From Rhynchobatus australiae (Eukaryota), in assembly GCA_034780895.1 (NCBI GenBank), contig JAUZTB010000098.1:85989963-86053962 (forward strand): a DNA stretch of 64,000 nt, given 5' to 3'. The position numbers and the translations under genes were made by a program. Position 1 is the stretch's first letter. Every line of letters starts with the position of its first letter. This document shows positions 63,106 through 64,000 of the stretch, piece by piece. The notes under the pieces were generated by a model that had not been told where the DNA came from, did not search any database, and saw only the letters and a list, made by a program, of their open reading frames with translations.

Positions 63106-63411
63106 CATTGCATCTATTTCATTCCTCCAGTAGATCTAGCCTTTCATGGGTGTTCCAGTCCACTACTGGCATAAAGCAATAAAAACTAGACCTGTAAATT
63201 GTAGGAACTGCCACCTGGATGTTGCTCATGGGAGGAGGCTGTTACATCTTAACCGGAAGGGGTCATTACTTTAGTTACATAGGTGCTGGGTAATGCCAAT
63301 CCTCAAGTCTGTTGTAGAGGTATGGGAAAAGAATATTCAGCATCTTGAGCTTGTAATGTAGACAAATGAGAAAGCCATTCAGTCCCAAGACTATTGCAAA
63401 GATATAGTAAA

Positions 63412-63786
63412 TGTCACAATGTTGATCAAAGAGCAAGCTCACAGACAACCTAAATGCAGCACACTGATACAAGACTGGAGTCAGTATACTTCCTCAGGAC
63501 AAAACACAGGCATTGTCGTAGGAAGAACCGGCATTTTCCCAGATCCCCTGTGTAGGGTTCTGGGTCAGGTACATGCGGTNNNNNNNNNNNNNNNNNNNNN
63601 NNNNNNNNNNNNNNNNNNNNNNNNNNNNNNNNNNNNNNNNNNNNNNNNNNNNNNNNNNNNNNNNNNNNNNNNNNNNNNNAGTTGCTGCCTGTGTTTTGTC
63701 TTGATGAAGTGTCCTGACTCCAGTTTTGTATCAGTGTGCTGCATTTGGGTTCTCTGTGAGCTTGCTCTTTGATCAACATTGTGACA
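63412..63786. mobile_element. Non-autonomous TIR element (MITE) with TG...CA ends, 101-bp TIRs and 5-bp TSD
   Basis: 63412-63512 versus the reverse complement of 63686-63786 gives 94/101 identities by manual alignment. GTAAA lies at both 63407-63411 and 63787-63791. Confidence 0.85.
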
Positions 63787-64000
63787 GTAAAAGATTATTT
63801 GGTTCCTCCAGCTTGTCATGGGTACAGAAGGAAATGTTGCCATGCTAGTCTAATATATAGGCACCAGAGGAGACAATTTAGTTGCTCAGGCTTGATACAT
63901 AGAAAGGGAAGTGGTGCATTAATCTCTTGTTTATATTACATACTGTAGGTGTACAAGAAAGTTGTTTGGTTCTTTTGAACCTCTTACAATCAATGATAGA

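What the first reader, a model, noticed from the sequence alone, without database searches (positions are those of the whole stretch)
63407..63791. MITE with retroviral-style TGTCAC...GTGACA ends, 101-bp TIRs and a 5-bp target duplication
Seen: two 101-bp arms in inverted orientation with 7 mismatches, ends TGTCAC...GTGACA, and GTAAA directly on both sides. The short interior runs into a 100-N gap. Established: TG...CA termini with 4-6 bp duplications are the signature of retroviral/Gypsy-type integrases. LTRs have only short terminal inverted repeats, whereas Ginger1/Ginger2 (TDD) DNA transposons combine such ends with long TIRs. Inference: this is either a non-autonomous Ginger-like element or an LTR end turned into a foldback and moved in trans by an LTR-retrotransposon integrase. 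I do not recognise it as a described elasmobranch family.
Basis: partly seen in the sequence, partly recalled or inferred. Interest (0 to 1): 0.7.

Follow-up and report, generated by a model that had tools for sequence, protein, structure and literature searches.

The report
Same-ended faulty copy of Gypsy retrotransposon
This insertion is not a miniature DNA transposon but a broken copy of a very common retrotransposon that carries the same end at both tips, likely made by a copying slip and pasted in by the element's own integrase, and other same-ended copies occur elsewhere in this genome.

Summary
The arms, the ends and the 5-bp duplication are real; a related species has the empty site. 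The MITE/Ginger reading fails. Each arm is the U5 tail of the ~400-bp LTR of a Tf1/Sushi-type chromoviral Ty3/Gypsy element, with 5,134 exact U5-end matches genome-wide. The visible 'interior' is a gag fragment fused to U5 at a 7-bp microhomology, and the true interior length is hidden by N. The insertion is therefore a copy with U5 at both tips. Such copies recur: 3 of 42 duplication-bounded ends in an unselected sample are U5-U5, one without a gap, and one U3-U3 copy was also found. They have different internal junctions, so they look like separate accidents, not an amplifying family. Resolved fold points lie in a hairpin at the U3/R border; 14 of 16 lie at the predicted RNA 5' end. Most likely cause: template switches in reverse transcription, followed by normal integrase joining. 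The interest is moderate: it shows a frequent route from an LTR element to a TIR-bounded insert, but nothing shows these copies move again.

The parts
63407..63411 (.). Left copy of the 5-bp target-site duplication (GTAAA)
   Evidence: single copy at the empty site of a related organism
63412..63512 (-). Last 101 bp (U5 tail and integrase end) of the ~400-bp chromoviral Gypsy LTR, read on the minus strand
63506..63512 (-). 7-bp microhomology shared by gag and U5, at which the two are fused
   Evidence: the same junction occurs at 2 places genome-wide
63513..63579 (-). Fragment of the element's gag gene (about 270-340 nt downstream of the 5' LTR in intact copies), encoding the P-E-P-Y-T-G-D...C-R-x-F-L-R-Q-C stretch
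   Evidence: 94% identity to the gag of copy L036; parent gag hits PF16297 and PF19259; the 22-aa piece alone hits nothing
63580..63679 (.). N stretch (assembly gap or mask, cannot be told apart). Predicted to hide the 5' part of gag, the primer-binding site, a U5-R copy and the fold point
   Evidence: the content is inferred from resolved analogues L013, L181, L183, L184
63680..63786 (+). Last 107 bp (U5 tail and integrase end) of the same LTR, on the plus strand, standing where a U3 end would be in a normal copy
   Evidence: junction covered by a contig
63787..63791 (.). Right copy of the target-site duplication (GTAAA)

Best explanation
The insertion is a rearranged copy of a Tf1/Sushi-type chromoviral Ty3/Gypsy retrotransposon with the LTR's U5 end at both tips, likely made by template switches during reverse transcription and likely joined to the chromosome by the element's own integrase. 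Shown: both arms are U5, the left one is fused to gag at a 7-bp microhomology, the insertion has a 5-bp duplication, and an empty orthologous site exists. Inferred: the new minus strand copied 101 nt of U5, jumped early into gag at the microhomology, and ran back to the RNA 5' end. There it switched at the U3/R hairpin onto a minus-strand U5-R (its own or that of a co-packaged RNA) and copied U5 again. Inferred: the integrase used the two U5 ends like a normal pair. Lacking U3 and the polypurine tract, the copy is predicted to be a dead end.
For: Identity of the arm: of 30 best-matching loci, 16 showed a different second end about 380-400 bp away in gap-free copies. 8 of these 16 have a perfect 5-bp duplication, 2 more match at 4 of 5, and none has a perfect 4- or 6-bp one. 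Parent: 17 of 29 gag-matching loci have the LTR upstream in the same orientation; Pfam RVT_1, RT_RNaseH, rve, SH3_Tf2-1 and Chromo; best solved RT is Ty3. The primer-binding site is complementary to 11 nt inside the LTR, as in self-priming Tf1-type elements (PMC4600332, passages). Recurrence: among 99 unselected U5 ends on contig C1, 39 pair with a U3 end and 3 with an inverted U5 end under a duplication of at least 4 of 5; the three U5-U5 cases are 5 of 5 (chance 0.3%), and L107 has no gap. Fold point: the U3/R region folds as DNA at z = -3.4. A tight pattern finds 16 fold junctions genome-wide; 14 of 16 carry the letter of the R start, so the switch came in the last 4 nt before the predicted RNA 5' end (p = 0.002 against 50:50). 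Early jumps: internal-to-U5 junctions with U5 tails of 14-112 bp at short overlaps occur in the window, L002, L003, L179, L181, L183 and L184. HIV-1 proviruses with the 3' LTR deleted up to U5 are described and ascribed to template switching (PMC9278108, passages).
Against: The window's own fold point lies under N and was not seen. Of 12 U5-U5 inserts with both tips visible, only 6 have a duplication of at least 4 of 5, 2 have 3 of 5, and 4 have 0-1 of 5, so half lack a clean integrase signature. A U3-U3 copy with a perfect duplication also exists (L204, 1 of 14 duplication-bounded U3 ends), which a minus-strand run-off does not explain. Paired arms are no more alike than random family pairs, and 4 of 9 scorable inverted pairs differ by a 7-bp indel variant (random pairs 40%). 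That points to two templates, which fits a two-molecule route equally well. The RNA start is predicted, not mapped. How the second strand of such a molecule would be primed without a polypurine tract is unexplained.
Confidence: 0.55

Rival explanations
1. Two separate cDNA molecules each gave one end to a single integrase complex. The staggered cut made the 5-bp duplication, and host end-joining fused the two inner ends at microhomologies, preferring the U3/R hairpin.
For: Arms are as divergent as random pairs, and 4 of 9 scorable inverted pairs differ in the 7-bp indel; both U5-U5 and U3-U3 products exist; the interiors are heterogeneous.
Against: 14 of 16 fold junctions sit at the predicted RNA 5' end, not spread over the stem. 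L204's U3 arms differ at only 1 of the first 73 bases, as from one template. The four direct two-LTR copies checked also differ by 6-10 substitutions in 70 bases, so divergence alone does not discriminate.
Confidence: 0.2
2. A normal, internally deleted copy inserted first. Later a replication template switch between the internal hairpin and the 5-bp terminal inverted repeat replaced U3 by an inverted copy of U5 and left the duplication intact.
For: Explains the symmetry of U5-U5 and U3-U3 and the near-identical arms of L204. The window's 7% arm divergence is compatible with the 5.5% flank divergence to the organism with the empty site (56 substitutions in about 1,020 bases).
Against: Predicts arms of one subtype, yet L098 and L107 (both 5 of 5 duplications) differ in the 7-bp indel next to the tip. 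It needs a copied tract of 100-230 nt that returns at a 5-bp match. It does not predict the bias to the RNA 5' end.
Confidence: 0.12
3. A MITE or non-autonomous Ginger-like family with 101-bp TIRs that is cut and pasted as a unit.
For: TG...CA ends, 5-bp duplication and empty site; the TIR length lies in the Ginger1 range of 40-270 bp (PMC2836005); the gag-U5 junction is shared by one other locus with different flanks (L002).
Against: The arm is the U5 of an LTR, and most copies have a different second end. The interior is gag. The other same-ended copies have different lengths and junctions. The window and L002 are no closer to each other (93%) than to ordinary copies (95-96%). None of 99 ends had integrase sequence between inverted arms within 7 kb. 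Ginger1 duplications are 4 bp, CCGG or CCGT.
Confidence: 0.05
4. Assembly artefact: gap filling or a heterozygous inversion put two U5 ends around a gap.
For: The assembly is fragmented at these LTRs (34 N runs in the window; most sampled copies contain N). The gag-U5 junction, 101 bp inside the arm, was not shown on a listed read or contig.
Against: Contigs cover 25 bp of U5-specific sequence at both tips, joined to unique flank. The arms differ by 7%, too much for two alleles of one LTR. The gag piece differs from L002's, so it was not borrowed from that contig. Gap-free same-ended copies exist (L107, L170, L172, L173, L180).
Confidence: 0.05

Closest known systems
Tf1/Sushi group of chromoviral Ty3/Gypsy LTR retrotransposons (parent family)
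   Same: LTR with short TG...CA inverted ends, 5-bp duplications, order gag-RT-RNase H-integrase-chromodomain, primer-binding site complementary to the LTR's own sequence (PMC4600332 and PMC3601003, passages).
   Different: This copy has U5 at both tips, no visible U3 and no polypurine tract. The family name could not be checked, as Dfam and Repbase are not available here.
Defective HIV-1 proviruses with asymmetric LTRs and inversions (PMC9278108, passages)
   Same: Integrated products of reverse-transcription template switches; 3' LTR deleted as far as U5 in 1 of 26 asymmetric proviruses; inversions reported.
   Different: The passages I saw describe deletions and internal inversions, not replacement of the U3 tip by an inverted U5.
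Ginger1 and Ginger2/TDD DNA transposons (PMC2836005, parts 1 and 3 of 5 read)
   Same: TG...CA ends and inverted arms of about 100 bp. The paper suggests Ginger1 TIRs may derive from two LTRs in opposite orientation and calls the chain of events unclear.
   Different: No transposase between the arms, no shared-interior family, a 5-bp non-specific duplication instead of Ginger1's 4-bp CCGG/CCGT, and the arms belong to an LTR family with RT.
TRIM/LARD-type non-autonomous LTR elements (recalled; two TRIM papers seen only as search listings)
   Same: Short, internally deleted, integrase-made insertions with 5-bp duplications.
   Different: TRIMs have direct repeats with primer-binding site and polypurine tract and can be copied again; this copy has inverted U5 tips.

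Membership tests
MITE | Terminal inverted repeats and a target-site duplication | tested here: met
MITE | Many copies of uniform length and interior | tested here: not met
   The internal junction occurs at 2 places; same-ended copies run 289-1180 bp with different junctions; 39 of 42 duplication-bounded ends pair with U3
MITE | Short non-coding interior | tested here: not met
   The visible interior is gag; the length is unknown because of N
Ginger1 | 4-bp CCGG or CCGT/ACGG duplication | tested here: not met
   5-bp GTAAA; definition from PMC2836005
Ginger1 / Ginger2 | Autonomous partner with the same TIRs and an integrase-like transposase without RT | tested here: not met
   The coding partner has gag, RT, RNase H, integrase and chromodomain; none of 99 ends had integrase between inverted arms within 7 kb. 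This is a sample, not the whole genome
Ginger1 / Ginger2 | Cut-and-paste excision | not testable with these tools
   No population data on excision footprints
Ty3/Gypsy chromovirus, Tf1/Sushi group (parent) | Domain order RT, RNase H, integrase | tested here: met
   Copy L067; best solved match is Ty3 RT
Ty3/Gypsy chromovirus, Tf1/Sushi group (parent) | Chromodomain after the integrase | tested here: met
   PF00385, E 1.4e-07, in L044 just before the 3' LTR; in L067 this part lies under N
Ty3/Gypsy chromovirus, Tf1/Sushi group (parent) | Direct LTRs with TG...CA ends and 5-bp duplications | tested here: met
Ty3/Gypsy chromovirus, Tf1/Sushi group (parent) | Primer-binding site complementary to the transcript 5' end (self-priming) | tested here: inconclusive
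   An 11-nt complementarity to a site about 25 nt after a TATA-like motif is seen; the transcript start was not mapped
Ty3/Gypsy chromovirus, Tf1/Sushi group (parent) | RT phylogeny groups with Sushi-ichi | not tested
   No reference sequences were fetched

The most novel reading that the evidence does not exclude
A hairpin at the U3/R border makes this self-priming chromovirus turn several percent of its insertions into inverted-repeat elements with integrase-type ends. Some of these have been mobilised again as DNA units (the window and L002 share one junction), which would be a direct route from a Gypsy LTR element to a Ginger-like DNA transposon.
Probability: 0.07. Interest if true: 0.8.

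Novelty: new variant of a known kind. Interest (0 to 1): 0.42.

Why it matters
It removes a false 'new MITE': TIR-plus-TSD finders will call such copies DNA transposons. It also shows that same-ended insertions are a measurable class in one vertebrate LTR family, about 7% of duplication-bounded ends (3 of 42, 95% interval 1.5-19%), with a hot spot at the predicted RNA start. That is a genomic record of reverse-transcription errors in a self-priming element, and it indicates that the integrase accepts two like ends in a germ line. It offers a simpler source of TIRs than the two chance insertions suggested for Ginger1 in PMC2836005, but only if integrase-coding or re-mobilised same-ended copies are found; none was seen here.

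Tried and rejected
A genome-wide count of outward-facing U5 pairs was not obtained, so frequencies rest on the first 100 listed ends of contig C1. 99 were scored (L165 dropped because the wrong side was fetched); 35 showed no partner end within 7 kb, mostly because of N, and 22 showed an end without a duplication. Laying contigs on an intact LTR-gag copy listed 12 short skips and no strand-changing joints: uninformative, as the contigs are short in this repeat. A genome search with the integrase core PF00665 gave 150 scored hits that do not separate Ginger from Gypsy and was not followed up. The second fold junction (L013 type) is unique in the genome. The long and short U5 variants are not tied to 5' or 3' LTRs. 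L013 and L009 are fold-backs without a duplication. L143 has normal ends with an internal inversion and is not counted as same-ended. The 22-aa and 55-aa gag pieces hit no Pfam family. Literature searches found no paper on U5-U5 insertions with target duplications; the library lacks most subscription journals, so this does not show absence from print. The one 'U5-U5' hit concerns RNA packaging. PMC109269 was not held; Butler et al. 2001 was seen only as a reference entry. No supplements were read.

Full report
Observation. The window has two 101-nt arms at 63412-63512 and 63686-63786, 93% complementary with 7 mismatches, ending TGTCAC and GTGACA and flanked by GTAAA on both sides. No other copy of the arm lies in the window. 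The stretch 63580-63679 is N, also in G000, so the length of the insert is unknown. Contigs from three runs of a related organism (two studies) join 63405 to 63786, skipping 380 bases with 5 letters that fit on either side: an empty site with one copy of the target. The flanks differ from the window by 56 substitutions in about 1,020 bases. A fourth run, possibly the assembly's source, covers both junctions without differences and reaches 25 bp into each arm. The insertion and its 5-bp duplication are therefore real. Earlier notes of this scan call the host a ray (unchecked).

What the arm is. A genome search gave 1,939 candidates, of which 40 were scored and 30 fetched. In most loci the arm is one end of a unit of about 380-400 bp whose other end is different. 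The second end was found in 16 of 30 loci: 8 have a perfect 5-bp duplication, 2 match at 4 of 5, and none has a perfect 4- or 6-bp one. These are solo LTRs. A 19-mer of the arm's tip matches 5,134 places exactly, and a 19-mer of the other tip 7,053. The window's visible interior, read on the minus strand, encodes a gag stretch. A search with it found 29 further loci: all continue as ordinary gag, and 17 have the LTR upstream in the same orientation. Unbroken frames of single copies hit DUF4939 and Ty3_capsid (gag), RVT_1, RT_RNaseH, rve, SH3_Tf2-1 and Chromo, and the closest solved RT is Ty3's. Since the arm's tip is the end followed by the primer-binding site and gag, it is the U5 end. Seventeen distinct U5 ends are followed by a site complementary to 11 nt inside the LTR itself. 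This is the arrangement described for self-priming Tf1-type elements from fungi to vertebrates (PMC4600332, passages; PMC3601003, passages). The parent is thus a Tf1/Sushi-type chromovirus by structure; no tree was built.

What the window's copy is. On the plus strand it reads: inverted U5 (101 bp), inverted gag piece, N, forward U5 (107 bp). The gag piece is fused to U5 at a 7-bp match inside a longer imperfect similarity. This junction occurs at 2 places in the genome, the window and L002, whose flanks differ; L003 uses the neighbouring match. The window and L002 are 93% alike, no closer than either is to ordinary copies.

How often this happens. I fetched the first 100 listed U5 ends of contig C1 with 7 kb of inward sequence and scored 99; one was dropped because the wrong side was fetched. 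Of these, 39 pair with a U3 end under a duplication of at least 4 of 5, 3 pair with an inverted U5 end under a perfect duplication (L098, L107, L117), 22 show an end without a duplication, and 35 show no partner, mostly because of N. Chance for a 5 of 5 match is 0.3% per pair; 3 of 42 is 7%, interval 1.5-19%. L107 has no gap. Among 30 U3 ends, 13 pair with U5 and 1 with an inverted U3 under a duplication (L204). Over all 12 U5-U5 inserts with both tips visible, 5 have a perfect duplication, 1 has 4 of 5, 2 have 3 of 5 and 4 have 0-1 of 5. Lengths and internal junctions differ. None of the 99 had integrase sequence between inverted arms.

Where they fold. The U3/R border holds an imperfect palindrome (z = -3.4 as DNA; tested on the copy in L061). 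A tight pattern for a switch within its inner stem finds 16 places genome-wide; the pattern read backwards finds none. One stem position tells the two partners apart: normal LTRs have one letter at the R start (20 of 21) and the other downstream (12 of 13). 14 of 16 junctions carry the R-start letter, so the strand was copied to within 4 nt of the predicted RNA 5' end before it turned (p = 0.002 against 50:50). Four of the 16 (L179, L181, L183, L184) combine this fold with an internal-to-U5 jump, the architecture predicted for the window; L183 has a perfect duplication. The pattern only samples folds in this stem; a fold in the outer stem occurs once.

Mechanism. Shown: the parts, their orientation, the duplication, the empty site, the recurrence and the hot spot. 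Inferred: an early minus-strand jump from U5 into gag, run-off at the RNA 5' end, a switch at the hairpin that copies U5 again, and joining of two U5 ends by the element's integrase (0.55). HIV-1 proviruses with the 3' LTR deleted up to U5 are ascribed to template switching (PMC9278108, passages). Against a purely single-template fold: paired arms are as divergent as random pairs, and 4 of 9 scorable inverted pairs (one is L143, which has normal outer ends) differ by a 7-bp indel, against 40% of random pairs. Four direct two-LTR copies do not differ by this indel, though one has other gaps and all differ by 6-10 substitutions in 70 bases. Two molecules joined in one integration event (0.2) and conversion after insertion (0.12) remain open; L204 fits the latter. 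A MITE/Ginger family (0.05) and an artefact (0.05) are unlikely. That the insert is an LTR-derived same-ended copy and not a MITE family is about 0.9.

Comparison and novelty. Ginger1 has 40-270-bp TIRs, 4-bp CCGG/CCGT duplications and a transposase without RT; its authors suggest that its TIRs may come from two opposite LTRs and call the route unclear (PMC2836005, parts 1 and 3 of 5). The window fails these membership tests but has the structure that such a route needs. Eight literature searches found no report of same-ended LTR insertions with target duplications; the library is incomplete. Two earlier notes of this scan reached a similar reading for single fungal inserts; they are leads, not support. 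Verdict: a real insertion, an ordinary parent, and an unusual but recurring faulty product; a new variant of a known kind, interest 0.42.

Noticed in passing
L204 (G000:C1:9104476-9107494): Copy with the U3 end at both tips, a perfect 5-bp duplication (CAAAT) and arms differing at 1 of the first 73 bases, across a 100-N gap: the mirror image of the window's structure.
   Followed up: partly
L117 (G000:C1:30025162-30032461): U5-U5 pair with a perfect duplication 1,180 bp apart that encloses an internally deleted inverted LTR and about 0.9 kb of non-LTR sequence; possibly captured or later-inserted DNA.
   Followed up: no
L171, L177, L178, L182: Inserts that begin with only 0-30 bp of the inverted hairpin arm and no integrase-type left end, then run as R-U5; they look like opened hairpins joined by the integrase at one end only.
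   Followed up: no
L143, L059, L040: Copies with internal inversions of LTR parts; L143 keeps normal outer ends and a 5-bp duplication.
   Followed up: partly
L013/L061:547-1129 and L009/L174: Fold-backs whose far end is a short match to the U5 tip (in L013 a look-alike inside gag), without a target duplication.
   Followed up: partly
L069-L168 and L001-L030: Many gap-free solo LTRs of this family lack a matching duplication (for example L082, L090, L106, L121), which suggests frequent recombination between LTRs at different loci.
   Followed up: no
window 1-64000: 34 runs of N in the window, many exactly 100 long; the assembly is very fragmented at repeats.
   Followed up: no
window 63412-63786, runs X1-X3: The related organism with the empty site also holds this LTR family and gag, at about 90% identity and much lower summed depth than the run that holds the window's sequence.
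   Followed up: no
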